Assembly (NCBI GenBank): GCA_021295755.1
Contig: JAGWBT010000003.1
Span: 43,129 to 107,128, forward strand
DNA length: 64,000 nucleotides
Source of the DNA: Candidatus Poribacteria bacterium
Lineage (GTDB): Bacteria > Poribacteria > WGA-4E > PCPOR2b
Direction: 5' to 3'
Shown: in pieces, positions 14,824 to 41,119 of the stretch
How the letters are laid out: the number at the start of each line of letters is the position of its first letter
How positions within the stretch are numbered: the first letter of the stretch is position 1
Made by a program: the position numbers and the translations under genes
The notes under the pieces: generated by a model
Database searches by the model: none
What the model was told of the DNA's origin: nothing
Seen by the model: the letters and a program-made list of their open reading frames with translations, nothing else

Positions 14824-14880
14824 TGAAACCCAACACCCCAATCCAACCGACGCTCAAACGTTGGGTTTCACTCGATTTTT
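14824..14880 (+). terminator. Hairpin GTGAAACCCAAC...GTTGGGTTTCAC followed by TCGATTTTT
   Basis: 12-bp perfect stem with a large 24-nt loop and a T-rich tail. It lies about 120 bp downstream of the aldolase stop codon. Confidence 0.35.
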
Positions 14881-15066: not shown

Positions 15067-15129
15067 TCACGGATATCCGTGAATCCCTTTATTTTATGCC
15101 TTGATCTCTCTTTTGTGTCATGCTATAAT
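15067..15129 (+). promoter_or_regulatory. Candidate promoter of the bc-complex operon: perfect 16-bp palindrome TCACGGATATCCGTGA, then TTGATC, a 17-bp spacer and an extended -10 TGcTATAAT
   Basis: The palindrome centre lies about 50 bp upstream of the -10 start. The identical palindrome, at the same spacing from a TGcTATcAT -10, is found at 24718-24781. Confidence 0.5.
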
Positions 15130-15237: not shown

Positions 15238-15726
15238 GTGCTATCACGACGTTCATTTTTTAAGTTTCTGGGCTGGGGAAATTTCCTCGCTGCTACCGGC
15301 CTTGCCTTTGGTCCCGGATTGATCCGATTCTTATACCCGCGAGTCCTTTTTGAACCATCCTCGGTCTTTAAGGCTGGATTTCCCGGCGAATATCCTCCCG
15401 GAACGGTTAGCGAGAAGTTCAAGAAAAATCCGTATCGCGTCTGGATTGTTCGAAAAGAAGATGGCGAGTTTTACGCATTGTTAGCTATTTGCACCCACCT
15501 CGGTTGCACCCCTCGATGGTTTGCATCTGAGAATAAATTTAAGTGCCCTTGTCACGGCAGCGGATTTGACCGTGAAGGGATGCACTTTGAAGGCCCTGCA
15601 CCGCGTCCCCTTGAGCGCGTGCAAATTACGCTGGCGGAGGATGGACAACTGCTGATTGATAAGTCCGTAAAGTTTCTGGAAGAGCGGGGCGATTGGGGAA
15701 AACCAGGGTCTTCTTTAAGGGTTTAA
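15238..15726 (+). CDS. Rieske [2Fe-2S] protein of a cytochrome bc-type complex, Tat-exported
   Basis: Rieske boxes CTHLGC and CPCHGSGF, and a twin-arginine motif SRRSFFKFL right after the GTG at 15238 (GAGGTGA RBS). The longer listed ORF from 15079 would cover the promoter elements. Confidence 0.8.
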   Translation: MLSRRSFFKFLGWGNFLAATGLAFGPGLIRFLYPRVLFEPSSVFKAGFPGEYPPGTVSEKFKKNPYRVWIVRKEDGEFYALLAICTHLGCTPRWFASENKFKCPCHGSGFDREGMHFEGPAPRPLERVQITLAEDGQLLIDKSVKFLEERGDWGKPGSSLRV

Positions 15727-15733
15727 TAAAGTA

Positions 15734-15758
15734 GTAGGCATACTCTGTATGCCGTAAC
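15734..15758. repeat. 3'-UTR hairpin element GTAGGCATAC-TCT-GTATGCCGTAAC immediately after the Rieske stop codon
   Basis: 7-bp stem and 3-nt loop. Near-identical elements follow the stop codons at 20806 and 22620. Confidence 0.55.
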
Positions 15759-15941
15759 CGATTTATAGTAGATATACTCTGTCTTGATCTCCGCGACGAG
15801 GCTTTGAAGGTTCGACTGCGTAAATTCTAATTCTACTAAATTATACCCTTTTGGTGCGGTCTTAACAAGAAAACCAAATTGAGCAAGAAAGGAGCTATAC
15901 AGCCTTGGTGATGCTAACGCGAAACAGGCTGAGTTGTTATT

Positions 15942-16715
15942 ATGAATGAAAGACGTAATGGATTAAAAGAGAAAATCACAAATAACCAGATCTGGCAGTC
16001 GATGTTTCGCCACGGCTACGAAAAAACAGGAAGACGATATACCCTCCAAGTCCTCCAAAATGTCTGGCTTCATCTGCATCCTCCCCGCGTTACCCGCCAC
16101 GCGATTAACTTCCGATTTACATGGTGCATGGGCGGGATTACCTTTCTGATGTTTCTTGTCACCGCCGTTACTGGTGTGTTATTGATGTTCTACTATCGTC
16201 CCACCGCAGAATACGCATTCCGTGATATCCAGTATCTTGAATTTGACATCCCATTCGGGATGCTCCTGCGTAATATGCACCGTTGGGCAGCCCACGGCAT
16301 GGTCATCGCAGTGATGCTCCACATGTTCCGCGTTTTCCTGACCGGGTCCTATAAAAAACCTCGCGAATTTAACTGGGGGGTCGGTGTCATCCTACTGCTT
16401 GTCACCTTTTTCCTCAGCTTTACCGGCTATCTGCTGCCGTGGGATCAGCTCGCATTTTGGGCGGTCACCGTCGGAACGAACATGGCGCGAGCAACACCCG
16501 TCTTAGGACATGAAGGTCCCTTCGCCCCGCAGGATATTGTTACTCAATCGAATGATGTCCGCTTCGCCCTCCTTGGGGGAACAATTGTTGGACCTTCAAC
16601 GCTATTACGATTTTACATCCTTCATTGTGTCGCCGTGCCGCTTTTGGCAAGCGTGTTGATGGCTCTACATTTCTGGCGTGTCCGTAAGGATGGCGGTATT
16701 TCTGGACCCCTGTAG
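15942..16715 (+). CDS. Cytochrome b, N-terminal (b6-like) half of a split cytochrome b
   Basis: Heme-ligand regions LLRNMHRWAAHGMVIAVMLHMFR and YLLPWDQLAFWA. It is 257 aa and is followed by a separate C-terminal-half gene. Confidence 0.85.
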   Translation: MNERRNGLKEKITNNQIWQSMFRHGYEKTGRRYTLQVLQNVWLHLHPPRVTRHAINFRFTWCMGGITFLMFLVTAVTGVLLMFYYRPTAEYAFRDIQYLEFDIPFGMLLRNMHRWAAHGMVIAVMLHMFRVFLTGSYKKPREFNWGVGVILLLVTFFLSFTGYLLPWDQLAFWAVTVGTNMARATPVLGHEGPFAPQDIVTQSNDVRFALLGGTIVGPSTLLRFYILHCVAVPLLASVLMALHFWRVRKDGGISGPL

Positions 16716-16756
16716 AACTGAATTCATTTCAATACTTATTTTCAGTGAGGTGATAT

Positions 16757-17623
16757 ATGGAGCATTTTCTTTTATTGGTTACGAAGCCGGATAACGTTCC
16801 AATTGTTGCAATTGTGTTGTTGTTACCTTTCTTCACTTGGCTTGCATTCAGCCAAGGGCGCAGAAATGACCGAGCCGGCACACCCGCAGAAGCAGCACTT
16901 AACGATAAAGTCTACTGCTGGCCCTACCTTTGCCGCAACGAGTTTCTCTGTGCGATTATTGTAATGCTCGTGCTGGGGATATGGTCTATTACCATTGATG
17001 CCCCCCTCGAAGAGCCCAGCGATCCAACAAAAACCCCGAATCCATCTAAGGCCCCATGGTATTTCCTCGCGCTACAGGAAATGCTAGTTTACTTTGATCC
17101 GTGGATTGCAGGTGTTGTCTTGCCAGGATTGATTATCGCCGGTTTAGTCGCCATTCCCTTTATAGATATCAATCCCAAAGGAAAAGGCTACTATACCCTA
17201 AAAGAGCGTCCGTTTGCACTTATTATCTTCTGTTTCGGCTTTTTCGTGTTATGGATCGTGTTGATGGTCGTCGGCACCTTCCTGAGGGGACCCGGTTGGA
17301 ACTTTTTCGCCCCATGGAAAGAGTGGGATCCGCACAAAATTGTGCCGTTAACCAACGTCAACCTCTCTTACCTATTTGGCATCCGGAACGAACAGCCCGC
17401 CGGTATCTTCGGGATGTGTGTTGTCGTCGGCTATTTTGCTCTGGGTCCCATCTATTATTATCTAAAAAGAGGAACGAGTAAGTTCCTTCAAGAGTTGGGA
17501 TTAGTGCGATACATCGTGGTTTCATTCCTGTTTTTAACGATGATGTCTTTGCCTATCAAGATGATTCTTCGGTGGACATTGAATATCAAGTATATTTGGG
17601 TTTCTCCGTGGTTCAATATCTAG
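16757..17623 (+). CDS. Cytochrome b C-terminal half (subunit-IV/PetD-like), extended
   Basis: Multi-TM protein with PEWY-region-like PWYFLALQEMLVYF. It sits immediately downstream of the b6-like gene. Confidence 0.75.
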   Translation: MEHFLLLVTKPDNVPIVAIVLLLPFFTWLAFSQGRRNDRAGTPAEAALNDKVYCWPYLCRNEFLCAIIVMLVLGIWSITIDAPLEEPSDPTKTPNPSKAPWYFLALQEMLVYFDPWIAGVVLPGLIIAGLVAIPFIDINPKGKGYYTLKERPFALIIFCFGFFVLWIVLMVVGTFLRGPGWNFFAPWKEWDPHKIVPLTNVNLSYLFGIRNEQPAGIFGMCVVVGYFALGPIYYYLKRGTSKFLQELGLVRYIVVSFLFLTMMSLPIKMILRWTLNIKYIWVSPWFNI

Positions 17624-17680
17624 GGCGTATTGGACAATGTGTAATTCGTCCATTCAAATAGTAAGGAGTCAATAGGAATC

Positions 17681-20600
17681 GTGAGGAGCAATAAAGAAAT
17701 TCAGGTTGAGGAAAAATCTTACGCAGCACTGTTTTTTATCCTTTCCGGTTTGTTGGGATTCGTTACGCTGTGGGGTTTCTATAACGAGACTATCACTAGA
17801 CGACCATGGAAGGAAATTCAGCGGCAATTTTACGAATACGAATATCAAAAAACCAAGATCGATTTGGAAAAGGCAAAACAGGATCTGCCTGAGATTGAAG
17901 CACCTCAAGAAATTGACCCTAAACAGGAGAGCAGCCTAAAAGGTGCGATTGCGAAGTTGCAGATAAAACTGGACGAAGCCCTGCAGGAACGCAAATTTGA
18001 TCAGAGTGAATCGGATGCAATCAATTATAAATATCAGCATGCACTGCACCACGGGGAACAAGAGAAAGCCGAAAAATGGAAAAAGAAATTAGACGAATTT
18101 GAAAGTCGGATTGAGGGACCATTGACGGACGCTGTACTGGAGGCGGAGCGGAATCTTGCCGATGCTTATAAGGATCTCGCTGAGCTTTATGATACCAATG
18201 GACACGTTGAGGCAGCGTTAAGTGAATATCTCCTTGTTCGAAAATATAATGCAGCAGACTCGACAGCTTCGGCGAAGATTGATGAACTTCAGGCGAAAAT
18301 TGAGGATGCGAAAGCGGATAAAGCCAAATACGCTGAGGTAGACAGACTTGAGGAGAAGCTCCATTCCGTTGGCGGTATTAAGCGCACTTTCATCGGCACG
18401 TTGGCGGAAAGCCCCTTCACAAAGACGCGCACGGTTGTGCAATACTACATTGAAGATTTTGACTATACGGCAGATCGATGTGCAACCTGTCACTTCGCTT
18501 CGGACAAAGCTGGATATGACAAGTTCGCCAAAGAGCAGTTTGAGGAAATCGAGGGGGATGGCGAAAGCCTGTTGACACTCCAATTAAAACATCCCTACAT
18601 TAATACAGATAGCGAAACGGTGCTCATTGATGAGGAAGATGCCGAAGAGGGTAGCTATGAGTTAAGCGAAGACGGCAAGTTGACCTTCACCGATCCGGAT
18701 GTTTTTGCCGATCTCGTCGAAATCGCGTATGAAACCGGATATGATCCCGTGCTTCGGACGCACCCCCACCGGGATGTGCTGCTCGGTAAACACCCCGGTG
18801 AAAGATTTGGATGCACCCCCTGCCACGGCGGACAGGGACAAGGTCTGACTCAAATAGCCGCACACGCCCTAGACCATAAGAAGGAGTATTGGTTGACACC
18901 TGTCTTGGGGTTGGATGAACACACAGGTAAGGCTTCAGAAGAATTGCACGGCTACATGGAGTCTAATTGTCGGCGCTGCCATGATGGCGTGATGATGCTA
19001 GACGCTCCGAATCCAGAGACAGGGCAGCTCCAAGATTATTCACCGGTTCTCTCGAAGGGAATGGCACTCTTTGAGGATATCGGGTGTCATGGCTGTCATG
19101 CTGTTGAGGGATATTCCGTGTTAGCGGACCTCGACCAAGTTGGTCCATCGCTTGCTAAAGTCGGTAGTAAAGTCAATGGTGTTGACTGGTTGGAAGGGTG
19201 GATTAAGCAGCCCACCGCCTATCTACCAGAGACCAAGATGCCAGATTTCTTCCCCGTCGAAAAGTTGACCCAAGCGGTTTATCTCAAAAATGGAAATAAG
19301 CACTACGGCGTCGTCACCAAGACCGACACCGGCATTATTCTCCAAAAAGACGATGGCACGAAATATCCTTATCCTGACACCGCTGTTGAAAGGGTTGTTG
19401 ATGAAGTGAAATCAATTGCGGCATACTTGGCACAGATGAAAGACCCGGCGATAGATCAGGCCGATACCTCATACTCGACGGCATCCCGTGCGATTGCTGC
19501 CGGTGAACAGGTCGTTAAATCTGTTGGCTGCCTGTCATGTCATGCAGTTGATGGACTCGGAAGCGATTTCGCACCAAAATTGGATAATGTGGGCAGCAAA
19601 CTCACACCACAATTTCTCCGTCAATGGATCAGCGATCCAAAATCTTACGACCCCGACACCGCTATGCCCAGCCTCCGTTTGACCAAAACTGAGGTGAACA
19701 ATGCGGTTGCCTATCTGATGTCGTTGCAAGAGACGGCAATCTCTCCTATTGCCGGCAACGAAAATCCGCACGCAGCGGTTGATCCGATGGAAGGCGAAAA
19801 GCTAGTTCGCACCTACGGTTGCTTCGGTTGCCATAACATCCCCGGCTTCGAGAATGAGTCGAAGGTCGGTGCAGATCTCGGCGAATTTGGCGCCAAGACC
19901 GTTGAGGAACTAGACTTTGGAGATACGACGGATATCGAACACAGTTGGCACGGTTGGACAATCGGCAAGGTGACCAATCCAAGACGCTATCAAACGCGTC
20001 GCATTGTATCCCGGATGCCCGTCTTTAGTGAACACACCATCGGCGAGGAAGAGGCACGTGCCCTCGCTGTTCTGCTCAAGAGTTTCCAACCCGTAAAATA
20101 CCCTGTGAGCTACCTCCACCAACCGAGCGAAAAAACATGGCAGGTTGATGCCGGACGCCGTCTCGCCAAAAAATACAACTGTACCGGCTGCCATGAGATT
20201 GAAGGAAAAGGCGGCGATTTTGTCAATGTTGTTGCCGCTAATGAAGACCTAGACCTACTAAACGCCAAGCGCTTCGCCCCGCCTACTCTGCAAGCGCAAG
20301 GTGCTAAGGTTTATCCGGAGTGGTTGTTTGAGTTCCTGAAATCACCTACTCCTATCCGCTACGGGCTTGAAGTTCGGATGCCGACTTTCGGTTTAGCAGA
20401 CGAGGAAGCGACTGCGCTTGTCAAATACTTCTCTGCGCTTGACGATGAGGTTTTCCCGTATGAGACCATCGCATTACAACCGGCGTCGCGAGGGGAGCTC
20501 CGTGTCGGCAAACAGATCTTTGACGCGCTCCAGTGTATCTCCTGCCACCCGGAACAAGGCGAAGTTATACCACCGGGCAGCGATAAAACCGGACGCCCCG

Positions 20601-20806
20601 ACCTTGCATTAGCGAAGGGTCGTCTCAAAGCGGACTGGGTCATTGAATGGCTCAAGGATCCACAATCCTTCCAACCGGGGACTGCGATGCCGCAAGCTTG
20701 GCCCAAAATCGGCGGCGCATATCAACCTGTTGATGGGTTTGCAGTCGATGATGCCGAAGAGCAGATCCGGCTGGTGAGAGATTACCTCAACTCGCTGGGC
20801 GAGTAA
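17681..20806 (+). CDS. Membrane-anchored octaheme c-type cytochrome of the bc complex, with a long coiled-coil-like linker
   Basis: Eight CxxCH motifs: CATCH, CTPCH, CRRCH, CHGCH, CLSCH, CFGCH, CTGCH and CISCH. It has an N-terminal TM helix and a GTG start with an AGGAG RBS. Confidence 0.8.
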   Translation: MRSNKEIQVEEKSYAALFFILSGLLGFVTLWGFYNETITRRPWKEIQRQFYEYEYQKTKIDLEKAKQDLPEIEAPQEIDPKQESSLKGAIAKLQIKLDEALQERKFDQSESDAINYKYQHALHHGEQEKAEKWKKKLDEFESRIEGPLTDAVLEAERNLADAYKDLAELYDTNGHVEAALSEYLLVRKYNAADSTASAKIDELQAKIEDAKADKAKYAEVDRLEEKLHSVGGIKRTFIGTLAESPFTKTRTVVQYYIEDFDYTADRCATCHFASDKAGYDKFAKEQFEEIEGDGESLLTLQLKHPYINTDSETVLIDEEDAEEGSYELSEDGKLTFTDPDVFADLVEIAYETGYDPVLRTHPHRDVLLGKHPGERFGCTPCHGGQGQGLTQIAAHALDHKKEYWLTPVLGLDEHTGKASEELHGYMESNCRRCHDGVMMLDAPNPETGQLQDYSPVLSKGMALFEDIGCHGCHAVEGYSVLADLDQVGPSLAKVGSKVNGVDWLEGWIKQPTAYLPETKMPDFFPVEKLTQAVYLKNGNKHYGVVTKTDTGIILQKDDGTKYPYPDTAVERVVDEVKSIAAYLAQMKDPAIDQADTSYSTASRAIAAGEQVVKSVGCLSCHAVDGLGSDFAPKLDNVGSKLTPQFLRQWISDPKSYDPDTAMPSLRLTKTEVNNAVAYLMSLQETAISPIAGNENPHAAVDPMEGEKLVRTYGCFGCHNIPGFENESKVGADLGEFGAKTVEELDFGDTTDIEHSWHGWTIGKVTNPRRYQTRRIVSRMPVFSEHTIGEEEARALAVLLKSFQPVKYPVSYLHQPSEKTWQVDAGRRLAKKYNCTGCHEIEGKGGDFVNVVAANEDLDLLNAKRFAPPTLQAQGAKVYPEWLFEFLKSPTPIRYGLEVRMPTFGLADEEATALVKYFSALDDEVFPYETIALQPASRGELRVGKQIFDALQCISCHPEQGEVIPPGSDKTGRPDLALAKGRLKADWVIEWLKDPQSFQPGTAMPQAWPKIGGAYQPVDGFAVDDAEEQIRLVRDYLNSLGE

Positions 20807-20810
20807 TGTG

Positions 20811-20837
20811 GTCAGCATACTCCGTATGCCGTGACCT
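20811..20837. repeat. 3'-UTR hairpin element GGTCAGCATAC-TCC-GTATGCCGTGACC
   Basis: Same family as 15734-15758 and 22618-22643. It lies 5 nt after the stop codon. Confidence 0.55.
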
Positions 20838-20875: not shown

Positions 20876-20908
20876 AGAAACCGAGCTTTTTCTTGAAAAC
20901 TCGGTTTC
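20876..20908 (+). terminator. Hairpin AGAAACCGAGCTTTT-TCTTG-AAAACTCGGTTTC
   Basis: A 12 to 13-bp near-perfect stem followed by T-rich sequence. An almost identical hairpin lies at 25609-25640. Confidence 0.5.
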
Positions 20909-20982
20909 TTTCCACGATTTCTTAACATAAGCGATGACGTGTATTCAATCCTTCCTATCGTGGTACTAAAAGGGGGCTACAA

Positions 20983-22620: not shown

Positions 22621-22643
22621 TAGGCAGACTCCGTATGCCGTAA
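22618..22643. repeat. 3'-UTR hairpin element GTAGTAGGCAGAC-TCC-GTATGCCGTAAC overlapping the symporter stop codon
   Basis: Same family as 15734 and 20811. There is one stem mismatch. Confidence 0.5.
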
Positions 22644-22729
22644 CTGTGTAGCTCCAGAACAAGGGTCAGATTCCCCCGCACTGTCGAGTTAAGTGGAATC
22701 ATGCGAATAACAAAGGTGGTATCGTTCAA

Positions 22730-23104
22730 ATGATTCGACATCTTCTCATCATCGTTGGGATATTTGCCGCTAGTATGAGTTGGCTGATTTGGCTCTGTCG
22801 GGCGGTAGACCCCAGTACACGATACGGCTCCGAAGTCGAGTACAATTATGCTAGATATTGTGCCGGTTGTCATGGTGCGAACGGTGAAGGCAATGGACGG
22901 ATTGGACGGTTCAAAAAGCTAGAACCTGCAGATCTGACGACAACCGAATTTTGGGAGGGTCGTACCGACGAACAACTTATCCACAGTATTGATGCCGGCA
23001 AGGATAATATGCCGGCATTTTTTTACTACCTAACCGATGAAGAACAGTGGGAACTGTTCGAGTTTATCAAAGAGACTTTTCGACCAACGCCGACGCATGA
23101 TTAG
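22730..23104 (+). CDS. Monoheme class-I c-type cytochrome, membrane-anchored
   Basis: CAGCHG heme motif and an N-terminal hydrophobic helix; 124 aa. Confidence 0.75.
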   Translation: MIRHLLIIVGIFAASMSWLIWLCRAVDPSTRYGSEVEYNYARYCAGCHGANGEGNGRIGRFKKLEPADLTTTEFWEGRTDEQLIHSIDAGKDNMPAFFYYLTDEEQWELFEFIKETFRPTPTHD

Positions 23105-23268
23105 GCACATCGTTTTTCTCGTTATGTGTCGTCAGACAGAGTAAAACCTCCTCAACCACTTCATTGCAAAACTAGCTACGGGTATAGTTATGGGGAACAG
23201 ATACGAAAATGTGCGTATCCGTTTTGCCCATCCTAACCTTTTTAGTTTCAAAACTAAGGAGGTTCAAA

Positions 23269-24195
23269 ATGAACATCGGAAGATTCACCAAATTCGCTTC
23301 TGTACTGACGATTGTTGCCCTGATTGTGGGGCTTTCAGCCTGTGACCAAATCGGACAACTTCTCCTCCCTGCTCCTACACCACCTGAGATGGACGGGCTT
23401 CCCGGAGAAATTATCATCGGTGTCTCCCTGCAGCTGGAAGGCGAAGATGCCACTCGCTTCCGCTGCCGGTCTGAGCGCGCTTAGCGATTTGTTTTCCGGA
23501 CAGGGCTCCCCACAAATGTGCTAAATCCAGCGGGTATCCGGGTGAGTCAGGCGAAACTCGGCTATCAACGGGCAGCACTGATATATGATGAGGCCGATGT
23601 CTATTCCACGAGTAGCAACGAGGAGGTAAGTAAAGCCCTTGCTGCTAGTGGTGTCGATATTGTGATTACAGAGACCATCCAAACCGATGGGACTGATTTT
23701 AGGTCACAATTAACTCGGATAATGGAGACAAATCCTGAGGCTGTCTTTATCTCCGCCTTATCCGCCCAGATGACTGATATTATGATTCAAGGGCGTGAGG
23801 TCGGTATCCCTGCCTCTGTTACGTACATTGTTCCCGATCTGACCGGAATCGAAGTGCAAATCGCAGGGGAAGCCGCCGAGGGGGCGATTGCTTTTACCAA
23901 TTGGAGTGCTATGGCTGACACCCCGGGCAATCAAGCTTTTGTCGAGAATTACCGGGCGAAATATGGTATCGAAGCTGGTCCCTGGGCCGCACAGTCGTAT
24001 GCTACCCTTTATATTCTAGCAGAAGCGATTGCGAATGCACAATCCACCGAGGCAACGGCAGTTCGGGACGCACTCGCAAAGACCATGGATTTCCCCACCG
24101 TTATGGGGAATTTCTCTTTTGATGAAGTCGGGGACGCGGTTTACGACCCAATTATACTGACTGTTGAAAATGGCGAACTTGTCGCATTTGAGTAA
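23269..24195 (+). pseudogene. Degraded branched-chain amino-acid ABC substrate-binding protein (LivJ-like): lipoprotein signal peptide and the C-terminal two-thirds survive in three different frames
   Basis: The signal peptide with a lipobox (LIVGLSAC) and GEIIIGVS are in frame A. ...AAGLSALSDLF is in frame B. The LivJ-like remainder (NPEAVFISALSAQ...AIAFTNW...FDEVGD) is in frame C. About 100 residues of the N-domain are missing. Confidence 0.65.
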
Positions 24196-24217
24196 GTCTC
24201 AGTGGTAAATATGCATG

Positions 24218-24270
24218 ACCGACCCCTGTTATCAGTCGTTTGCTGATGGCAGGGGGTCGGTTCTAATTTG
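24218..24270 (+). terminator. Hairpin ACCGACCCCT...AGGGGGTCGGT followed by TCTAATTT
   Basis: A roughly 10-bp GC-rich stem, with a nested small hairpin in the loop. It sits right after the LivJ-like pseudogene. Confidence 0.4.
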
Positions 24271-24687
24271 GTAACCCCTCGTTGTAAAGGAGGTTGCCTT
24301 AAAATGAAATTCACATCAAGGAGAGTTACCGGTCAGATCTGGTATACCACTGTTCTCGGAGTGACCATCTACGTTTTTTTGTTCTTGGTTGCGTATATAT
24401 GGATTGACCATGCTTCTAACCGCGAGGAATTCCCTATCCATATACTCGGTCCGATGTATATCGGCCTTTCGTTCTACCAGATCTTATCCATCATCAACGT
24501 TGCATGGTTGTTCTTTCTAATGGCAGATCTGTCCTCCGCGCTGCGCTTACTAACCCCTCCACGAAAAGGAAAACTTCGAGGTATCGTGATACGCCTAGGC
24601 AGCATCCTGTTATCAATTGCAGCGGTTGTTACGGTGCAGTGGGCTGCCTCGTCGCTAAAACGTGTGGCCGACGCTTACGCGATCTAA
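24268..24687 (+). CDS. Hypothetical small integral membrane protein
   Basis: ORF with 3 to 4 predicted hydrophobic helices. No recognisable motif, and the start is uncertain (an ATG at 24304 is an alternative). Confidence 0.35.
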   Translation: MVTPRCKGGCLKMKFTSRRVTGQIWYTTVLGVTIYVFLFLVAYIWIDHASNREEFPIHILGPMYIGLSFYQILSIINVAWLFFLMADLSSALRLLTPPRKGKLRGIVIRLGSILLSIAAVVTVQWAASSLKRVADAYAI

Positions 24688-24717: not shown

Positions 24718-24781
24718 TCACGGATATCCGTGACATCTTCTTTTTTAACCCTTGATTCCCCTTTTCGTATGCTGCTATCAT
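24718..24781 (+). promoter_or_regulatory. Candidate promoter of the cupredoxin/bd-like/cytochrome-c operon: palindrome TCACGGATATCCGTGA, then TTGATT, an 18-bp spacer and TGcTATcAT
   Basis: Identical 16-bp palindrome and near-identical geometry to 15067-15129. Confidence 0.5.
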
Positions 24782-24845
24782 AAATACCATCAACATACAA
24801 TCATTTCAACATCGGACTTAAATAAAGAAAGGATCGGTTCAAATC

Positions 24846-25595
24846 ATGAAAACTGCAATAACTCTGGCCGCACTCAGCTTTATGCTCATCGCAAGCCTGA
24901 CGTATGCCGGCACAATCACCGGAACAGTTATGTATGATGGGGAGGCCCCAGCACGCCCAGCGATGCAAGCGACCAAAGACCAGCACTGTGTTGATTCGCT
25001 AAAAAATGGCAAATCTGAAGCCCTTGTAGTCTCTAAAGGCAAAGGAATTAAAAACGTCGTTGTCTACTTGCGGGCACGAGGCGCGAAGCCAACAATTCCC
25101 ACCAAAAATCCAGTCATGGATCAGGTCAACTGCATGTACTATCCGCATGTCCTCGTTGTGACCGCAGGCACCACAATAGATGTGACCTCCAGCGACCCGG
25201 TTGCCCATAACGTCCATTCTCATGCAACGAAGAACGAGGCACCGAATTGGCAAATACCGGGTCCCGGTAAAAAGTTGCCTCTGAAACTAGAAAAACGTGA
25301 AGCTATTAAATTCACCTGCGACATCCACAATTGGATGACGGGATATATCTTTGTTACGGACAATGACTATTACGCTGTGACCGGCTATAAGGACAAAGAC
25401 GGCAAATGGATCAGTTCCGATGCCTACGAAGGTTCGAGCGATACGGGTGCCTACATGATCAAAGATGTTCCCGCCGGCAAATACCGGGCTATAGCATGGC
25501 ACGAGGAGCTTGGAGAGACCAAAGCTCAGGTTGTCGAAGTTGCAGACGGAGACGTTGAGATTAACTTTACCAGTGCTGATTTCAAGAAGAAGTAA
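24846..25595 (+). CDS. Secreted cupredoxin-like (type-1 copper, plastocyanin/amicyanin-like) protein
   Basis: Signal peptide; copper-ligand pattern H (VAHNVHSH) ... C-x2-H-x2-M (TCDIHNWM). It is paralogous to 31850-32629. Confidence 0.6.
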   Translation: MKTAITLAALSFMLIASLTYAGTITGTVMYDGEAPARPAMQATKDQHCVDSLKNGKSEALVVSKGKGIKNVVVYLRARGAKPTIPTKNPVMDQVNCMYYPHVLVVTAGTTIDVTSSDPVAHNVHSHATKNEAPNWQIPGPGKKLPLKLEKREAIKFTCDIHNWMTGYIFVTDNDYYAVTGYKDKDGKWISSDAYEGSSDTGAYMIKDVPAGKYRAIAWHEELGETKAQVVEVADGDVEINFTSADFKKK

Positions 25596-25608
25596 CACTG
25601 CCGACGCA

Positions 25609-25640
25609 GAAACCGAGTTTTTTCTTCAAAACTCGGTTTC
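25609..25640 (+). terminator. Hairpin AGAAACCGAGTTTT-TTCTTC-AAAACTCGGTTTC
   Basis: 13-bp perfect stem, 14 nt after the stop codon; near-identical to 20876-20908. Confidence 0.5.
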
Positions 25641-25703
25641 TCTGAACGTTTTCCACTTTTTTTGACATGAAACCCGTGGGTCAGATACCAATGAACAAAT
25701 TGT

Positions 25704-25800: not shown

Positions 25801-27624
25801 ATGTATCTCACCAAACATCTCAATATGAGCCAGTCCAAAAACAGGCTATATTTTCTTCTCGCTCTGCTTGCTATGTATCTGCTGTTGACGGTTGCGACTG
25901 TCTTCGCTCAAGATGCGACTGACACAGAATACCGCCCCTTCCCGGGGATCGGCAGCCGTAACGCCGCATGGATCGCTGCCCAGCTGCATCTGTTGTTCGG
26001 TTCCTTCATCTTGGGTGTTCCGATGTTTGCGGTTGTCATTGAGTTTGTCGGGCTGAAAACGAAGGACAAACGGTATGACAAGATGGCGCAGGAGTTCATC
26101 AAACTGTGTATGGGAGCGTTCTCAACGACCGCGTTGATGGGCGGGGTACTTGTTTTTATCCTCATCTGGTGTTACCCGAAAGTGATGAACAAACTGTCAG
26201 GAATCTTCGGTCCTTCGATGATTTTCTACGTCATCCTGTTTTTTGGGGAGACCTTTACGCTCTATCTCTATTCTTACGGGTGGGATCGGATGCAGGGCAG
26301 GGTGTCGAAAATGTGGCACCTATTTCTCGGCGTGCTCCTGAACGTGTTCGGTACAGCGATTATGTTCGTCTCTAACGCTTGGCTGACATACCAGACAAGC
26401 CCAGCGATTATGGGCCCCAAACCCGACCACGAGGCAATTCCGCTTCATGATGAGTCGGGCGCATTCATCGGTACGCTGTGGCAGGCAATCAATAACTATA
26501 CGTGGATGCCTGTCAATATCCACCGTCTCATTGGGAATATAGCTTTCGGTGGTGCAATCGTTGGTGCCTATGCCGCCTTTCGGTTCCTTGCTGCCAAAAC
26601 GCAGGAAGACAGGGCGCATTACGACTGGATGGGATATACGGGCAATTTTATCGCACTGTGCGGATTGATTCCATTGCCATTCGCCGGATATTGGTTGGGA
26701 CGGGAAATCTATATGTTCAACCAAACGATGGGCATCAACATGATGGGAAGCCTCTTTTCTTGGCTGTTTATTATTCAAGCGGTGATGATTGGAGTGCTGT
26801 TCATCGGAGCGAATTACTATCTCTGGTCTGGCATGACCCGCATCGCAGGCGGCGAGGTATACGCTCGTTTTCGTCCCTACATGATCGCTATCATTGTTCT
26901 ATCTGTCGCAGTCTGGATGACGCCGCGCACACTCATTGTGACGCCTACGGAGTCGGCTGCAATGGGTGGGCCAAATCACCCGCTCGTTGGACTTTTCGGC
27001 TTGATGACAGCGAAGAACACGGTTGTCAATCTCATTATCTTGACCACCTTTCTCAGCTTTCTGTTTTACCGTCGATCCGGTAAAACACCGACAGTGAGTT
27101 GGCGCAAAGCGGGCAATATCGTCATCGCAGCGATTTTTGGACTGGCTGTCGCAGCGATTGTTACAATTGGGATCGTAGGGTTCAAGGTTAACACTGACTT
27201 CCGCGTCAATGTCCTAACGCCGATACAAGTGATGGTCGCGTTAGCTGTCATGGTTTTGGTAACGGTGATTGACTTGATTATGTATCGCAAAGCGATGCGT
27301 TCAAGCGAAATCAGTTGGGGGCAGATGACGGACCGGTCACAATATGTGCTGATTTTACTCGCCATTACCTTTACCTCATTGATGGGATTGATGGGCTACG
27401 CACGGTCGGGGCTTCGAGAGGCGTGGCATATTTTCGGTGTAATGCCCGACAAGTCGCCGGATGCACACACCCCGCTGCTTGCGGATGCCGTTAACATGAT
27501 TGCCGTTATTATAGTGATTTTCTTCGCTTTGGTAGGCTTTATTTTCTGGCTCGGTTTGTGGGGCGATAAGAAAAAAGAGGGACAGCCACCCGTTAAAGCA
27601 GAAGCCTCCGCAGGAGATGATTAA
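25801..27624 (+). CDS. Cytochrome bd oxidase subunit-I (CydA)-like polytopic membrane protein, enlarged (607 aa), with no adjacent cydB ('bd-like')
   Basis: By eye, it has a CydA-like helix 1 with a His (AAQLHLLFGSFILGVPMF) and a helix-5-like segment PVNIHRLIGNIAFGGAIVGAYAAFRFL. It has about 12 to 14 hydrophobic helices and a signal-like N-terminus. This is pattern recognition only. Confidence 0.5.
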   Translation: MYLTKHLNMSQSKNRLYFLLALLAMYLLLTVATVFAQDATDTEYRPFPGIGSRNAAWIAAQLHLLFGSFILGVPMFAVVIEFVGLKTKDKRYDKMAQEFIKLCMGAFSTTALMGGVLVFILIWCYPKVMNKLSGIFGPSMIFYVILFFGETFTLYLYSYGWDRMQGRVSKMWHLFLGVLLNVFGTAIMFVSNAWLTYQTSPAIMGPKPDHEAIPLHDESGAFIGTLWQAINNYTWMPVNIHRLIGNIAFGGAIVGAYAAFRFLAAKTQEDRAHYDWMGYTGNFIALCGLIPLPFAGYWLGREIYMFNQTMGINMMGSLFSWLFIIQAVMIGVLFIGANYYLWSGMTRIAGGEVYARFRPYMIAIIVLSVAVWMTPRTLIVTPTESAAMGGPNHPLVGLFGLMTAKNTVVNLIILTTFLSFLFYRRSGKTPTVSWRKAGNIVIAAIFGLAVAAIVTIGIVGFKVNTDFRVNVLTPIQVMVALAVMVLVTVIDLIMYRKAMRSSEISWGQMTDRSQYVLILLAITFTSLMGLMGYARSGLREAWHIFGVMPDKSPDAHTPLLADAVNMIAVIIVIFFALVGFIFWLGLWGDKKKEGQPPVKAEASAGDD

Positions 27625-27651
27625 CAATCAAACACAATCAGGACGAGAGCG

Positions 27652-29154
27652 ATGCAAAGAAGACTAATTAGAATTATCTGCCTAATTTTAATGGTTGTGA
27701 GTTTTATCGCCTATATCGCGAAAGCGCCGGCTTTCCCGATCGCTTCGGAAAACCTACTGCCGTGGTCTGCATGGTTTTTTATCTTTGCTTTGGCGAATAT
27801 CATACTCTGGCAGAGCGTGGTCAAACTCATGTCATTTGCGTTGATGGTCATCTGGTTCTATGCGTTTGCGGCCAGCATTGTTCCAGAAACATCGACTGCG
27901 ACGTTTGACCCTAACGCCGTAGACCGGACGCCGGATGCGTTTATTGAGGTTGGGGAGATAATCTTTAACGGGAAAGGAAAATGCAACACCTGCCATACAC
28001 TTGATCCGTCTGCGCCAAAAAGTCGCTGTCCCGATTTAACGGATATTGGCACTCGCGCTGCAACACGCCAACCGGGAATGACTGCGAAGGAGTATCTCAT
28101 CGAATCCACCTATGAACCCCACAAATTCCTTGTTCCCGGCTACAGCAACATTATGCCGCCCGTCTGGAAACCACCAATCAGTCTAACTGAGTTGGAAATC
28201 GAAACCGTCATTGCCTTCCTCCAGAGTCAGGGTGGAGAAGTGGATGTAACAAAGTTTGAGCCGCCCGTTGATATCGGAAGTGCGGAAGCCATAGCCGAGG
28301 AATTGCCACCCCTCCTCACAGGCGACGTAGAACGTGGTAAAAAGGTTTTTGTAGAGGGCGCGAAGTGTATCGCGTGTCACGCTGTCGCTGGTGTCGAGCA
28401 ACCTACCGGTCAAACGCTTGACGAAGGTGTTGAAGTTGTCGCTGCACCCGAATTGACGGATATCGCTGGGTTAAACAGTCTCCGGTATATTGAGGAATCC
28501 GTCCTATTACCGAATGCTCAAATTGTGAGCGGATACGGTTCCGTTACGGTGAAAACCGGCGGTGCCACAATTCAGGGAACGCTTGTTACGCAAGATAATG
28601 AGCAGATCAGTGTGCGTGTTAAGGACGTAGCCGGTAACGAAGAAGAGCACACCATTCTATTGAGCGAGCTCGATCCAGAGCCGATTGAAGAGTTGACAGA
28701 TCTGACAGGGAAAGGATACTTCTGGATTCAAGTAACGCTTGCCGACACGGGAGCCACCGTAAGTGGCGATCTCGTAGAAGAGGACGACGAAAACATTATA
28801 CTTCAGGCGGGTGGAGAGACGCAAACGGTTTCTAAGTCGAACGTGAAGGTTCAGGCGACATTGATTGACTTTGATGAGAATGTTATCGTTGGGGAATTGG
28901 TATCGGAAAATGAGGACGAAGTCATCTTAAACGTTGATGGTGAGGAGCAGATCATTGATACATTCGATATCGACGAAGGTCCGAACTACAGCCGTGCTTT
29001 CGGTAAGCGATTGGTTGTAACTTCCCCGATGCCGAATAACTTTCCGTTGTTGCTATCGGTTTCCGACATGAGCGATCTACTCGCCTATCTAGCAAGCTTA
29101 ACGGGTGCGACAGACGCGACAGCGGCTGAGGGAGCAGAGGCAACCGCCGAATAA
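27652..29154 (+). CDS. Diheme c-type cytochrome with an N-terminal membrane domain and three C-terminal beta-rich repeats of about 35 aa
   Basis: CNTCH and CIACH motifs. Internal repeats: TGATIQGTLVTQDNEQISVRVKD, TGATVSGDLVEEDDENIILQAGG and VIVGELVSENEDEVILNVDG. Confidence 0.7.
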   Translation: MQRRLIRIICLILMVVSFIAYIAKAPAFPIASENLLPWSAWFFIFALANIILWQSVVKLMSFALMVIWFYAFAASIVPETSTATFDPNAVDRTPDAFIEVGEIIFNGKGKCNTCHTLDPSAPKSRCPDLTDIGTRAATRQPGMTAKEYLIESTYEPHKFLVPGYSNIMPPVWKPPISLTELEIETVIAFLQSQGGEVDVTKFEPPVDIGSAEAIAEELPPLLTGDVERGKKVFVEGAKCIACHAVAGVEQPTGQTLDEGVEVVAAPELTDIAGLNSLRYIEESVLLPNAQIVSGYGSVTVKTGGATIQGTLVTQDNEQISVRVKDVAGNEEEHTILLSELDPEPIEELTDLTGKGYFWIQVTLADTGATVSGDLVEEDDENIILQAGGETQTVSKSNVKVQATLIDFDENVIVGELVSENEDEVILNVDGEEQIIDTFDIDEGPNYSRAFGKRLVVTSPMPNNFPLLLSVSDMSDLLAYLASLTGATDATAAEGAEATAE

Positions 29155-29170
29155 GGAGAGTTAAACCGCC

Positions 29171-29950
29171 ATGCAAAGATTATCCCTTTTCACAAAATGC
29201 CTAATCATATTTGTTGTGCTTTGGCTCTTTTTAAGATTCTTCATCGGTGGTGTATGGTCTGTGCCGTTACCCGCTAGCGTGATCTCAATGTATTTGGGGC
29301 TTATTCTATTGGCGATTCTGGTTCACGTGTCCGTCGAAGATGACAGGTTTCGAGAATTTCTCCGTCCTGTCAAAGAGACCTTGGCTGATGAGGATAGGGG
29401 GACAAGGCGTACTGTGTTGTTTGTCCTTATTCCTTTGGTTATGCTTGGTTTAAGTTTTTCTAGGTTGTCAACAAAGGCAGATCCACCAGCCGCGCTGCGC
29501 ACTGCCCATCCGGCGCCACCTGATGAACTGACCTACCGCGACAAGGTTATCGGTCCCACGCAACAGGTGGAAAACCCCTTCCGGCACCTTGAAAAAGATG
29601 ACAAGGAAGCATTTAAGGCTCATGTAGAGAACGGACGGCGGGTCTATTATCAAAACTGTTTCTACTGCCACGGCGACGATCTTGATGGCGAAGGACATTT
29701 CGCTCACGGTTTCAACCCACCGCCTGCAAACTTTCAGGACCCTGGGATTATTCCGAACTTCCAGGAATCTTTCTTCTTCTGGCGTATTAGTAAGGGAGGC
29801 CCCGGTCTGCCGCCAGCTGCAACCCCGTGGGATTCTGCCATGCCGGTCTGGGAGGATCACCTGACAGAGGAGGAGATTTGGGATGTGATTCTCTTCCTGT
29901 CTGAATACACAGGGTATCGACCACGGACGTTTGGTGAAGCGGCGCATTAA
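29171..29950 (+). CDS. Membrane-anchored monoheme c-type cytochrome
   Basis: CFYCHG motif and two N-terminal hydrophobic helices. Confidence 0.7.
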   Translation: MQRLSLFTKCLIIFVVLWLFLRFFIGGVWSVPLPASVISMYLGLILLAILVHVSVEDDRFREFLRPVKETLADEDRGTRRTVLFVLIPLVMLGLSFSRLSTKADPPAALRTAHPAPPDELTYRDKVIGPTQQVENPFRHLEKDDKEAFKAHVENGRRVYYQNCFYCHGDDLDGEGHFAHGFNPPPANFQDPGIIPNFQESFFFWRISKGGPGLPPAATPWDSAMPVWEDHLTEEEIWDVILFLSEYTGYRPRTFGEAAH

Positions 29951-29972
29951 GATTGGAGCGGAAGAAAAAACA

Positions 29973-31715
29973 ATGAAAAAGCAATCCTATAATACAATGT
30001 TGATTTCAGTCGCCGGTCTTATTTTGTTGTTAGTGGTTTTTCCAATTACATCTCTTGCCCAAGGGAAACAGGCACCCGCAGCCTCCGAAGCAGGAAAGGC
30101 ACTCTATGATGATAAGTGTGCGCACTGCCACGGTATAGAGGGAGCGGGCGATGGATCTGCAGCAGAAAACCTGTTGCCAAGACCGAGGGATTTCACGCGG
30201 GGGCTTTACAAAATCCGTTCGACGGAAAGCGCTCAACTGCCCACCGATCAAGATCTCTTTGACATCATATCGAACGGTATGCCGGGATCCTCAATGCCAG
30301 CTTGGAGCGAACTGCTGAGTGAGGATCAACGGTGGCAACTCGTTGCCCATATCAAAACATTCCACGACGGCTTTGAAGGGGCTTCACCGCGGTTAATTGA
30401 TGTGTCGGGCAAAGTTCCATATTCTGAAGAGAGTGTCGCAAAAGGAAAAGAATTTTACACCACTCTTGGGTGTGTCGATTGCCACGGAGTGATTGGCAGA
30501 GGCGATGGTACGTCCGCCCCAGATCTGACCGATGAGTGGGGCTTTCGCACATGGCCCGCCAATCTATGGGAACAGTGGAATTATCGGGGCGGTGCGACAA
30601 CTGAGGATATTTTCAAACGATTCATCGGTGGTATTGCTGGCTCGCCGATGCCTTCGTTCATCTCAAGTTTTCGACTCGGTCTGACAGATGAGGAATCGGC
30701 TCGTATGAATGAGCTAGAACTCAAAATGGATGACGACGGTCTTTCAGAAGCGGAAGACGAAGAATACGCAGCGCTTGAGGAAAAGTTGTTTATGTTTGAA
30801 GACATCATGCTCAAGGTTGAAGAAGGCGAAGAACTTGAACCTGACGAACAGACTAAACTCGATACAGCCCTGAAGCCGATTTTTGAGAAAAGCTGGCACC
30901 TCGCAAATTATGTAAAATCCCTAGGACCCGAAGAGCGACCACCAGCGGCAGTCGGCGACAAAGTACTACGCTCACAATATCGCGCCGGTGCCTTGCCGGG
31001 CATAAACGATGAAGTGTGGAATGAAATTCAAGAAGCCAGTTATTTTCCGCTGGTCGGTCAAATTGTTATTGACCCTCGACAATTCAACCCCTCGATCGAT
31101 TCAATAATGGCAAAGTCGTTCTATAACGATAATGAAATTGCGTTTCTATTTACATGGGATGATCGGACGAAAACCCTTCCCCAGACAGACGACGAGACCG
31201 GAGAGACGGTTGAAGATGCTCTAGCAATTCAATTTCCGGTGAAGATTGCTGAAGGTCCGACGGATCCCAAACCTTACTTCATCTGGGGCGATCGGCTTCC
31301 CGTCTATCTCTGGAGTTGGAAGGTCGCTGAGCCGTCAACGGTGACAGAGATGACTGCGAAGGGGATCGATAAAGCGACTGTCCAAGCTGATCAAAGCCTA
31401 ATACAGGCTGAAGGGGTTTACGAAGATGGGCAATATCAACTATGGGTTAAAAGATCCCTCACAACCGATGACAAAAGAAATGACGTGCAGTTTACACCGG
31501 GCGTATTCATACCCATCGCTTTTTCTGCATGGGATGGCGCAAATGGTGATGTAAAAACGAAGCGAGCCATTTCAACGTGGTACACATTCGTCCTTGATCC
31601 CGTTCCATCGAACAAGCGATTTGTCTATCCGCCGCTGGTTGCCCTTATCTCCGTTGGCCTCCTTTTCGGCTTGAGAAGTAGTGTCAGGAGACGACAGAAT
31701 ACAGAAGAAGTTTAA
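29973..31715 (+). CDS. Diheme c-type cytochrome with a large C-terminal domain and a C-terminal TM anchor
   Basis: CAHCHG and CVDCHG motifs, a signal peptide, and a terminal hydrophobic helix YPPLVALISVGLLFGL. The start is the ATG at 29973 after GGAG; the listed ORF begins at an upstream TTG that overlaps the previous gene. Confidence 0.7.
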   Translation: MKKQSYNTMLISVAGLILLLVVFPITSLAQGKQAPAASEAGKALYDDKCAHCHGIEGAGDGSAAENLLPRPRDFTRGLYKIRSTESAQLPTDQDLFDIISNGMPGSSMPAWSELLSEDQRWQLVAHIKTFHDGFEGASPRLIDVSGKVPYSEESVAKGKEFYTTLGCVDCHGVIGRGDGTSAPDLTDEWGFRTWPANLWEQWNYRGGATTEDIFKRFIGGIAGSPMPSFISSFRLGLTDEESARMNELELKMDDDGLSEAEDEEYAALEEKLFMFEDIMLKVEEGEELEPDEQTKLDTALKPIFEKSWHLANYVKSLGPEERPPAAVGDKVLRSQYRAGALPGINDEVWNEIQEASYFPLVGQIVIDPRQFNPSIDSIMAKSFYNDNEIAFLFTWDDRTKTLPQTDDETGETVEDALAIQFPVKIAEGPTDPKPYFIWGDRLPVYLWSWKVAEPSTVTEMTAKGIDKATVQADQSLIQAEGVYEDGQYQLWVKRSLTTDDKRNDVQFTPGVFIPIAFSAWDGANGDVKTKRAISTWYTFVLDPVPSNKRFVYPPLVALISVGLLFGLRSSVRRRQNTEEV

Positions 31716-35081: not shown

Positions 35082-35105
35082 TGAAAAGAAAGGAGTCAAT
35101 ATAGA

Positions 35106-36953: not shown

Positions 36954-36969
36954 GATAATATAGGACGTA

Positions 36970-37011
36970 GAGAACGCAGAGCAAATACTTTTTCTCTGCG
37001 CTCTCTGCGTT
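36970..37011 (+). terminator. Hairpin GAGAACGCAGAG...CTCTGCGCTCTC/CTCTGCGTT after coxA
   Basis: Alternative 9 to 12-bp stems, 17 nt after the stop codon, followed by AAGATTTTA. Confidence 0.35.
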
Positions 37012-37161
37012 AAGATTTTACCACTAACAACTCATTCTATTTTCTTGCATGGAAAGCCAAAGTATCTGTGCGATGGCTTCCAAAACCATCGGTCTAAAAG
37101 AGATCCCCAAATCTGTGTTTATCTGCGTCCTATCTAAGCCAAGGAGGTTGTTACTGGCTCA

Positions 37162-40027: not shown

Positions 40028-40077
40028 ATGGAGTTTAGCGGAGAGCAGGACCTCTCTAGCTCCCTGGAGATTCAGAA

Positions 40078-41116: not shown

Positions 41117-41119
41117 AAA

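What the first reader, a model, noticed from the sequence alone, without database searches (positions are those of the whole stretch)
24718..24781. Second copy of the palindrome-plus-promoter module
Reported separately so that the two sites can be tested independently. Same 16-mer, a TTGATT -35, an 18-bp spacer and a TGcTATcAT -10. It lies about 65 to 130 bp upstream of the cupredoxin start codon.
Basis: seen in the sequence. Interest (0 to 1): 0.5.

Follow-up and report, generated by a model that had tools for sequence, protein, structure and literature searches.

The report
Conserved operator-plus-promoter upstream of respiratory operon
A perfect 16-base palindrome sits at a fixed distance upstream of an ordinary bacterial promoter for a copper-protein/oxidase operon, and also for the cytochrome bc operon. 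It is unchanged in about 35 related uncultured sponge-associated bacterial species, so it is very probably the docking site of a still-unknown regulator that switches the two respiratory operons together.

Summary
TCACGGATATCCGTGA lies at 24718-24733. It is followed by an 18-nt T-rich linker, TTGATT (-35, 24752-57), an 18-nt spacer and TGCTATCAT (extended -10, 24773-81). The module lies 128 to 65 nt upstream of the ATG of a type-1-copper (cupredoxin-like) gene that heads a cytochrome bd-like oxidase / cytochrome c cluster. The only other copy in the window (15067) has the same layout in front of a Rieske / cytochrome b / multihaem c operon.

The organism is a Candidatus Poribacteria bacterium. 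In 34 other species-level genomes the exact 16-mer occupies the same place at the cupredoxin promoter. It also does so at every Rieske promoter that could be inspected (17). The DNA just upstream of it is unalignable. Its centre stays 48.5-50.5 bp from the -10, which puts it near -61.5. A sister clade of 46 species has the same genes but different promoters and no palindrome.

Best reading: this is the operator of an unidentified dimeric transcription factor at a class-I-type position, co-regulating two respiratory operons. Activation is somewhat more likely than repression. No regulator gene lies within the 64 kb window or the 10 kb flanks. The motif matches no consensus I could recall and no paper in the library. 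It is a real but ordinary kind of element.

The parts
24718..24733 (.). Perfect 16-bp palindrome TCACGGATATCCGTGA, the inferred operator. Its centre (24725.5) lies about -62.5 from the inferred transcription start.
   Evidence: An exact copy sits at the orthologous position in 34 other species loci. The 40 nt upstream have a mean major-allele frequency of 0.47.
24734..24751 (+). 18-nt T-rich linker CATCTTCTTTTTTAACCC between the operator and the -35. A TTTnA core is partly conserved. It may be an UP-element-like tract or the alpha-CTD landing zone (inferred).
   Evidence: conserved columns in the linker across both promoters. The gap length is 17-18 nt in all 53 sites.
24752..24757 (+). -35 hexamer TTGATT (4 of 6 matches to TTGACA), preceded by a conserved C.
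   Evidence: TTGATT or TTGATC in 32 of 35 cupredoxin promoters.
24773..24781 (+). Extended -10 TGCTATCAT (TG-n-TATCAT), 18-nt spacer from the -35.
   Evidence: TGCTATCAT in 31 of 35 orthologous promoters.
24786..24789 (+). Inferred transcription start region, about 7 nt after the -10. It has not been mapped.
   Evidence: Inference from sigma-70 promoter geometry. No transcript data are available.
24827..24833 (+). Shine-Dalgarno-like GAAAGGA, 12 nt before the ATG.
   Evidence: AAAGAAAGGA is conserved in the orthologous leaders.
24846..25595 (+). First gene driven by the module: a 249-aa secreted cupredoxin-like (type-1 copper) protein with a C-terminal CarboxypepD_reg/fn3-like domain.
25608..25653 (+). 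46-nt hairpin plus T-tract just after the cupredoxin stop codon. It repeats 20876-20921 at 87% identity. It is terminator- or attenuator-like and could make the cupredoxin transcript more abundant than the downstream genes (inferred).
25801..31715 (+). Downstream same-strand genes: cytochrome bd-like oxidase subunit (607 aa), cytochrome c proteins (500 and 259 aa), and a cytochrome c / EB_dh-DOMON protein (594 aa). They probably belong to the same transcription unit.
15067..15129 (+). First copy of the module: palindrome 15067-15082, linker, TTGATC at 15101-15106, 17-nt spacer, TGCTATAAT at 15121-15129. The palindrome centre is near -61.5.
   Evidence: An exact palindrome is present in all 17 other loci that include the Rieske upstream region.
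15238..20806 (+). Operon behind copy 1: Rieske protein (GTG at 15238, twin-arginine leader), cytochrome b N-terminal and C-terminal subunits, and a 1041-aa multihaem cytochrome c.

Best explanation
The 16-bp palindrome is the DNA operator of an unidentified, probably homodimeric, transcription factor. It is paired with a sigma-70-type promoter that has an extended -10. The operator centre is held about 49.5 bp upstream of the -10 hexamer, near -61.5. That is the position from which class I activators such as CRP contact the alpha-CTD of RNA polymerase across an A/T-rich linker. The same module precedes the Rieske/cytochrome b/multihaem c operon and the cupredoxin/bd-like oxidase/cytochrome c operon. 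One regulator can therefore set the level of an electron-transfer complex and its presumed downstream oxidase branch together. The signal is probably oxygen, redox state or metal supply. Shown: the sequence, its duplication, its invariance, its fixed spacing and its restriction to one clade. Inferred: protein binding, the transcription start, the sign of regulation (activation favoured, roughly 60:40 over repression) and the signal. The confidence given (0.55) is for the whole statement including activation. That the element is a protein operator coupled to a promoter I put at about 0.85.
For: 1. There are two exact copies in 64 kb and no other site with up to 3 mismatches.
2. Both copies have identical architecture in front of respiratory operons.
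3. The exact 16-mer is at the orthologous cupredoxin promoter in 33 GTDB species loci plus L076. It is at all 17 inspectable Rieske promoters. There is no exact copy elsewhere in 0.68 Mb of these loci.
4. The flanks are unconserved while the -35 and -10 are conserved.
5. The distance from palindrome centre to -10 is 48.5-50.5 bp in 53 of the 55 exact sites, the count that includes L118 and L180. The other two (Rieske promoters of L026 and L029) lack the TG and were not measured.
6. A tree of cupredoxin plus bd-like oxidase puts all palindrome-bearing loci in one clade and all 46 loci without it in the other. Cupredoxin identity within the bearing clade falls to about 65%.
7. Of 120 metagenome hits to the 16-mer, 101 lie inside long ORFs of unrelated taxa. 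Only the two that are homologous operons (L118, L180) carry the promoter layout.
8. The loop bases are as invariant as the stem bases. That fits recognition of double-stranded DNA better than an RNA hairpin.
Against: No regulator was identified. No DNA-binding protein is encoded in the window. The 10 kb upstream holds only an orphan histidine kinase and an ECF sigma factor, and the 10 kb downstream holds nothing relevant. The core promoters are already close to consensus (TGCTATAAT, TTGATC, 17 nt), so an activator may not be needed. That weakens the activation reading. Complete invariance means no position-specific information is available to assign a regulator family. There are no expression or transcription-start data. 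The sister clade runs the same operons without the site, so it is not indispensable. Clade A was recognised partly by having the site, although the protein tree gives the same split independently.
Confidence: 0.55

Rival explanations
1. The site is an operator, but for a repressor or anti-activator. The bound protein would occlude the A/T-rich upstream tract from alpha-CTD, or otherwise damp two intrinsically strong promoters. The operons would be derepressed when the signal releases it.
For: Both core promoters are near consensus with an extended -10, so they should fire without help. The T-rich linker sits directly beside the site.
Against: There is only a single site and it does not overlap the -35, the -10 or +1. 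No second operator is available for looping. The spacing is held to within 1 bp, which is more typical of a face-specific contact with RNA polymerase.
Confidence: 0.25
2. The palindrome works as an RNA hairpin. It would be an intrinsic terminator or 3'-end stabiliser for transcripts reading in from the upstream gene (24268-24687), and it merely sits next to the promoter.
For: The scanner flags it as terminator-like on both strands. The 6-bp stem folds at about -8.5 kcal/mol with z about -3.2. It starts 31 nt after the upstream stop codon.
Against: At copy 1 the upstream gene ends 360 nt away. In other lineages the upstream gene differs, for example a HicAB pair, yet the 16-mer and its distance to the -10 are unchanged. 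The T-run starts 6 nt or more after the stem, and it is weak in lineages such as L019-L031. The loop is invariant and no compensatory stem changes are seen. Real terminators drift in sequence.
Confidence: 0.05
3. It is a copied promoter cassette (a 'mobile promoter' or a relic of duplication). The palindrome would have no present regulatory role, or would serve as a structural or other protein site unrelated to transcription, such as a nucleoid or partition protein site.
For: The two modules are 77% identical over 48 nt, including non-consensus spacer bases. L076 carries a tandem second copy that is decaying.
Against: A functionless 16-mer would not stay invariant at two loci across about 35 species while neighbouring bases randomise. 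In L076 the extra copy does decay, which shows what relaxed selection looks like. The spacing to the -10 is fixed. There are no copies outside these promoters in 1.5 Mb surveyed.
Confidence: 0.05

Closest known systems
Class I CRP-dependent promoters (e.g. E. coli lac P1, CRP site centred at -61.5)
   Same: It has a single dyad-symmetric 16-bp core site, centred about 61.5 bp upstream of the inferred start. That is one helical face and about 26 bp upstream of the -35, with an A/T-rich stretch between the site and the -35.
   Different: The sequence is TCACG-N6-CGTGA, not TGTGA-N6-TCACA, so the arms point the other way. The core promoter here is strong, whereas lac P1 is weak. The binding protein is unknown. 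The comparison rests on my knowledge of CRP promoters, not on a test.
Global regulators that co-control bc-type complexes and terminal oxidases (FNR/ANR/FixK, RegA/PrrA/RoxR, Rex, ArcA, ResD)
   Same: The logic is the same: one cis motif is shared by the promoters of a quinol:cytochrome c-type complex and an oxidase operon, giving coordinated respiratory remodelling.
   Different: The motif does not resemble the consensus sites I recall for these regulators: TTGAT-N4-ATCAA, GCGNC-N5-GNCGC, TTGTGAA-N4-TTCACAA, and direct repeats for ArcA and ResD. The aa3-type oxidase operon in the same window (34600-42126) lacks the site. The regulon seen so far is only two operons.
Sigma-70 promoters with an extended -10 (TGnTATAAT)
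   Same: TG-n-TATCAT or TG-n-TATAAT, a 17-18-nt spacer, and TTGATT or TTGATC as the -35. The same TGCTATCAT also occurs 67 nt upstream of another gene start at 7462.
   Different: Nothing is unusual about it. It is the promoter half of the module.

Membership tests
Sigma-70-type promoter with extended -10 | -35-like hexamer, 16-18-nt spacer, -10-like hexamer with A2 and T6, and TG one base upstream of the -10 | tested here: met
   TTGATT-18-TATCAT with TG. Copy 1 has TTGATC-17-TATAAT with TG.
Sigma-70-type promoter with extended -10 | Elements conserved at orthologous positions relative to the gene | tested here: met
   TGCTATCAT in 31 of 35 and TTGATT or TTGATC in 32 of 35 cupredoxin promoters. 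The leader and SD are conserved.
Sigma-70-type promoter with extended -10 | Mapped transcription start 5-9 nt downstream of the -10 | not testable with these tools
   No transcript data are available.
Transcription-factor operator (dimeric regulator site) | Dyad symmetry, conservation above the flanks in orthologous promoters, recurrence at functionally linked operons | tested here: met
   It is a perfect 8+8 palindrome. Conservation is 1.00 in the 16-mer against 0.47 in the flanks. It occurs at two respiratory operons in each genome.
Transcription-factor operator (dimeric regulator site) | An identified protein that binds it | tested here: not met
   No candidate was found in the window or in 10 kb on either side. 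Binding itself cannot be tested with these tools.
Class I activator-dependent promoter | Site centred near -61.5 (or -71.5, -82.5 and so on) on the same helical face | tested here: met
   The centre is 48.5-50.5 bp from the first base of the -10 in 53 promoters. That gives -60.5 to -62.5 if the -10 spans -12 to -7. The start site is inferred.
Class I activator-dependent promoter | Core promoter too weak to fire unaided | tested here: inconclusive
   The -35 matches only 4 of 6, but the -10 is consensus or near-consensus with a TG extension. By E. coli rules this would be active alone.
CRP/FNR-family binding site | Consensus TGTGA-N6-TCACA or TTGAT-N4-ATCAA | tested here: not met
   The sequence is TCACG-GATATC-CGTGA. 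The consensus sequences are recalled from memory.
Intrinsic terminator | G+C-rich stem immediately followed by a U-run, with the sequence free to covary | tested here: not met
   The stem has 6 bp and about -8.5 kcal/mol. The T-run is offset by 6 nt or more, and it is weak in lineages such as L019-L031. The loop and stem are invariant. The scanner's loose rule does flag it.
Dispersed repeat (REP or mobile-promoter family) | Many copies in varied genomic contexts | tested here: not met
   All exact copies in 0.68 Mb of clade-A loci are at the two promoters. None occurs in 0.89 Mb of clade-B loci. Whole genomes were not scanned.

The most novel reading that the evidence does not exclude
The palindrome is the operator of a lineage-specific master regulator of respiration, from a family with no described motif. 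The regulator would have been acquired once in one Poribacteria clade and would have replaced the ancestral promoters of both the bc-type complex and the bd-like oxidase operon. The absolute invariance of all 16 bases, including the central ATAT, at every promoter where it occurs (53 distinct promoter sequences) would then reflect an unusually stringent or dual constraint, for example protein recognition together with a DNA or RNA hairpin.
Probability: 0.2. Interest if true: 0.55.

Novelty: new member of a known kind. Interest (0 to 1): 0.35.

Why it matters
Poribacteria are uncultured, abundant sponge symbionts, and nothing is known about how they regulate respiration. This module offers a concrete, testable handle. 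A 16-bp bait is available for DNA-affinity capture or DAP-seq. There is a two-operon core regulon linking a bc-type complex to a cupredoxin/bd-like oxidase branch. There is also a natural comparison: 35 species with the module and 46 without it, all carrying the same genes. That comparison could identify the regulator by phylogenetic profiling. It would also help show whether the poorly understood bd-like oxidase is tied functionally to the bc complex. As a class of element, an operator plus a promoter, it is ordinary.

Tried and rejected
Of these hits, 101 lay inside long ORFs of unrelated taxa. Only L118 and L180 were true modules. No new regulon members or regulator gene came from this scan.
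2. I looked for a regulator gene with Pfam across the window's ORFs and in 10 kb beyond each end. These turned up only an orphan histidine kinase, an ECF sigma factor, a cold-shock protein and a PIN toxin. The regions upstream of the Rieske promoter in L019 and L022, and the insertion in the L019 operon, also hold no regulator.
3. A third, 2-mismatch site in L019, L021 and L023 lies inside a HicB antitoxin coding sequence and is a chance match.
4. A literature search for the motif string and its sub-strings found only primers and unrelated sequences.
5. Rfam found nothing anywhere in the window.
6. From memory I compared the motif with CRP, FNR, Rex, NrdR, BldD, parS, LexA, Fur-family, LysR T-N11-A, and the sigma-54 -24/-12 elements. 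None fits. These comparisons are recollections, not tests.
7. Half-site and relaxed searches in the window gave no further intergenic sites.

Full report
**1. What is in the sequence**

One search shows TCACGGATATCCGTGA at 24718-24733. It is a perfect palindrome of two 8-base arms with an EcoRV-like GATATC at its centre.
- Eighteen T-rich bases follow (CATCTTCTTTTTTAACCC).
- Next comes TTGATT at 24752-24757, then an 18-nt spacer, then TGCTATCAT at 24773-24781.
- A GAAAGGA ribosome-binding site lies at 24827-24833, and the ATG of a 249-aa ORF is at 24846.

Every detail in the finding is correct. Allowing up to 3 mismatches, the window contains only two matches to the 16-mer, and both are exact: 15067 and 24718. 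The simple promoter scanner lists TTGATT-18-TATCAT with an upstream TG. However, promoter-like matches are not enriched in this stretch by themselves (2 found against 3.3 expected). The argument that the promoter is real therefore has to come from comparison with other genomes.

**2. The two copies are one module**

Copy 1 is TCACGGATATCCGTGA, an 18-nt linker, TTGATC, a 17-nt spacer and TGCTATAAT (15067-15129).
- Aligned without gaps, the first 48 nt of the two modules are 77% identical.
- Copy 1 precedes a Rieske protein (GTG at 15238, twin-arginine leader), a split cytochrome b and a 1041-aa multihaem cytochrome c.
- Copy 2 precedes the 249-aa protein, a 607-aa cytochrome bd-like subunit and three cytochrome c proteins.
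- The 249-aa protein is a plausible cupredoxin. Its Pfam Copper-bind hit is weak. A profile of the family hits type-1 blue copper domains and amicyanin at E 4.5e-6 to 2e-3. The His...Cys158-x2-His161-x2-Met164 ligand pattern is invariant.
- The aa3-type oxidase genes further along (34600-42126) have no such site.

**3. Origin and comparative evidence**

The cupredoxin protein is 100% identical to a Candidatus Poribacteria protein. A scan of one genome per species returned 80 loci, nearly all labelled Poribacteria.
- In the 33 closest loci (L001-L033, cupredoxin identity 94-71%) and in L076, the exact 16-mer lies 119-142 nt upstream of the cupredoxin start, and 235 nt in L076.
- A second exact copy lies 100-170 nt upstream of the Rieske gene in all 17 loci that reach that far.
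- No exact copy occurs anywhere else in these 0.68 Mb.
- A 2-mismatch match in three loci falls inside a HicB antitoxin gene and is a chance match.
- Anchored on the palindrome, the 40 nt upstream have a mean major-allele frequency of 0.47, close to random. The 16-mer scores 1.00, and the -35 and extended -10 are nearly fixed.
- I found the sites by exact matching. The non-circular statement is that no orthologous promoter in this clade carries a mismatched version.
- The distance from the palindrome centre to the first base of the -10 is 49.5 bp in 30 promoters, 48.5 in 15 and 50.5 in 8. This count of 55 exact sites also includes L118 and L180; two Rieske promoters that lack the TG (L026, L029) could not be measured.
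- With the -10 at -12 to -7, the centre falls at -60.5 to -62.5.

**4. Clade restriction**

The other 46 loci (L034-L080 apart from L076) carry the same genes in the same order.
- They have no match with up to 3 mismatches at either promoter.
- They use different promoters: TTTGCA-N17-TGTTAATAT for the cupredoxin gene, and a consensus TTGACA-17-TATAAT plus a proximal promoter for the Rieske operon.
- A neighbour-joining tree of cupredoxin plus bd-like oxidase separates palindrome-bearing from palindrome-free loci cleanly. The bearing clade includes deep branches (L180/L076, L033, L032).
- The module therefore arose or was lost once. It has since stayed unchanged over divergence down to about 65% cupredoxin identity.
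- It is also present in a groundwater metagenome contig (L118, Rieske 86% identical), so it is not confined to sponge samples.

**5. What it is not**

*An intrinsic terminator.* The 6-bp stem is weak, at about -8.5 kcal/mol. The T-run starts 6 nt or more after it, and it is weak in lineages such as L019-L031. The loop is as invariant as the stem. At copy 1 the upstream gene ends 360 nt away, and in other species the upstream neighbour is a different gene.

*A dispersed repeat.* All copies in 1.5 Mb of related DNA are at these two promoters. Of 120 metagenome hits to the 16-mer, 101 are chance occurrences inside long ORFs of unrelated organisms.

*A known RNA.* Rfam finds nothing in the window.

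*A sigma-54 promoter.* There is no GG-N10-GC element in the module (my reading).

**6. Mechanism**

The best-supported reading is a protein operator coupled to a sigma-70 promoter. A dimeric regulator binds the dyad. From about -61.5 it sits on the same face as RNA polymerase, one A/T-rich linker away from the -35. That is the geometry of class I activation, as I know it from CRP at lac. The fixed spacing within 1 bp across 53 promoters favours a face-specific contact.

Against activation, both core promoters look strong by E. coli rules. A repressor or anti-activator acting on the upstream tract therefore remains a serious alternative. I put it at about 0.25, against about 0.55 for activation within an overall probability of about 0.85 that this is an operator.

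The signal is unknown. Oxygen, redox state or copper/iron supply would be natural for operons rich in haem, iron-sulfur and copper. That is an inference only.

**7. The regulator**

I could not identify it.
- No DNA-binding regulator is encoded in the 64 kb window.
- The 10 kb upstream hold an orphan histidine kinase and a divergent ECF sigma factor. The 10 kb downstream hold nothing relevant. Neither flank carries a further site.
- The upstream regions examined in other lineages hold none either.
- The motif string is absent from the searchable literature.
- It does not match the consensus sites I recall for CRP, FNR, Rex, RegA, NrdR, BldD, LexA, Fur-family or LysR-type regulators.
- Because every site is identical, no degenerate logo exists from which to guess a family.

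**8. Verdict**

The element is a real, strongly constrained operator-plus-promoter module that couples two respiratory operons in one clade of Poribacteria. The kind of element is familiar. The motif and its regulator are undescribed. Interest is moderate to low. Its value lies mainly in giving a precise bait and a clean presence/absence contrast for finding a respiratory regulator in an uncultured phylum.

Noticed in passing
window 15727-15758, 20804-20835, 22613-22644: Three copies (81-100% identical) of a 32-nt element begin at or overlap the stop codons of the Rieske, multihaem cytochrome c and SDF-transporter genes. Each contains the hairpin GGCATAC-N4-GTATGCC. It is a REP-like or 3'-end stabiliser element.
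   Followed up: no
window 20876-20921 and 25608-25653: A 46-nt repeat (87% identical) forms a 10-bp stem AGAAACCGAG...CTCGGTTTCT followed by a T-rich tail. One copy follows the bc operon and one lies directly after the cupredoxin gene, before the bd-like oxidase gene. It may be a terminator or attenuator that splits the operon's expression.
   Followed up: partly
window 23209-24687; L019 9309-9733: The stretch between the small cytochrome c gene (22730-23104) and the palindrome varies between species. Here it holds a periplasmic-binding-protein gene that appears broken into two ORFs (23209-23484 and 23518-24195), plus a 139-aa membrane ORF with no Pfam match. In L019 it holds a HicAB toxin-antitoxin pair. 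In clade B the cytochrome c gene abuts the cupredoxin promoter.
   Followed up: partly
L076 8923-9158 (also L180): This deep-branching locus, labelled candidate division TA06, has two modules in tandem. The distal one is intact. The proximal one has a decayed palindrome (TCACGGCTCTCCGTGT, 3 mismatches) and a weakened promoter.
   Followed up: partly
clade-B loci, e.g. L048 and L054, about 50-75 nt upstream of the cupredoxin ATG: The alternative promoter of palindrome-free species carries an inverted repeat CTGTRRT-N8-AYYACAG straddling its -10 (TGTTAATAT). This could be a different, repressor-type operator. It was not seen at the Rieske promoters of those species.
   Followed up: no
window 14824-14870: A long inverted repeat GTGAAACCCAAC...GTTGGGTTTCAC lies in the 530-nt gap between the HpcH-like aldolase gene and module copy 1. 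Related GGTTGGGTTGAAC text lies at about 14738. Its function is unknown, possibly a terminator or a repeat element.
   Followed up: no
window 40078-40712: A PIN-domain toxin gene (40296-40712, E 2.9e-12) with a small upstream ORF overlapping by 4 nt is inserted between two COX3-like genes of the aa3 oxidase cluster.
   Followed up: partly
window 48296-54390: A cluster of proteins carries the small PCP_red domain (protochlorophyllide reductase 57 kD C-terminal domain) in unusual combinations: Usp+PCP_red x3+rubredoxin-like (647 aa), PCP_red alone (166 aa), and radical SAM/SPASM+PCP_red (433 aa). A NUBPL/ParA-type ATPase sits beside them. Its function is unclear.
   Followed up: no
window 7387-7395: The same extended -10 string TGCTATCAT occurs 67 nt upstream of the GTG start of the enolase-superfamily gene at 7462, without a palindrome. 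TGCTATMAT occurs 4 times in the window against 0.77 expected. This suggests a preferred strong -10 form in this genome.
   Followed up: no
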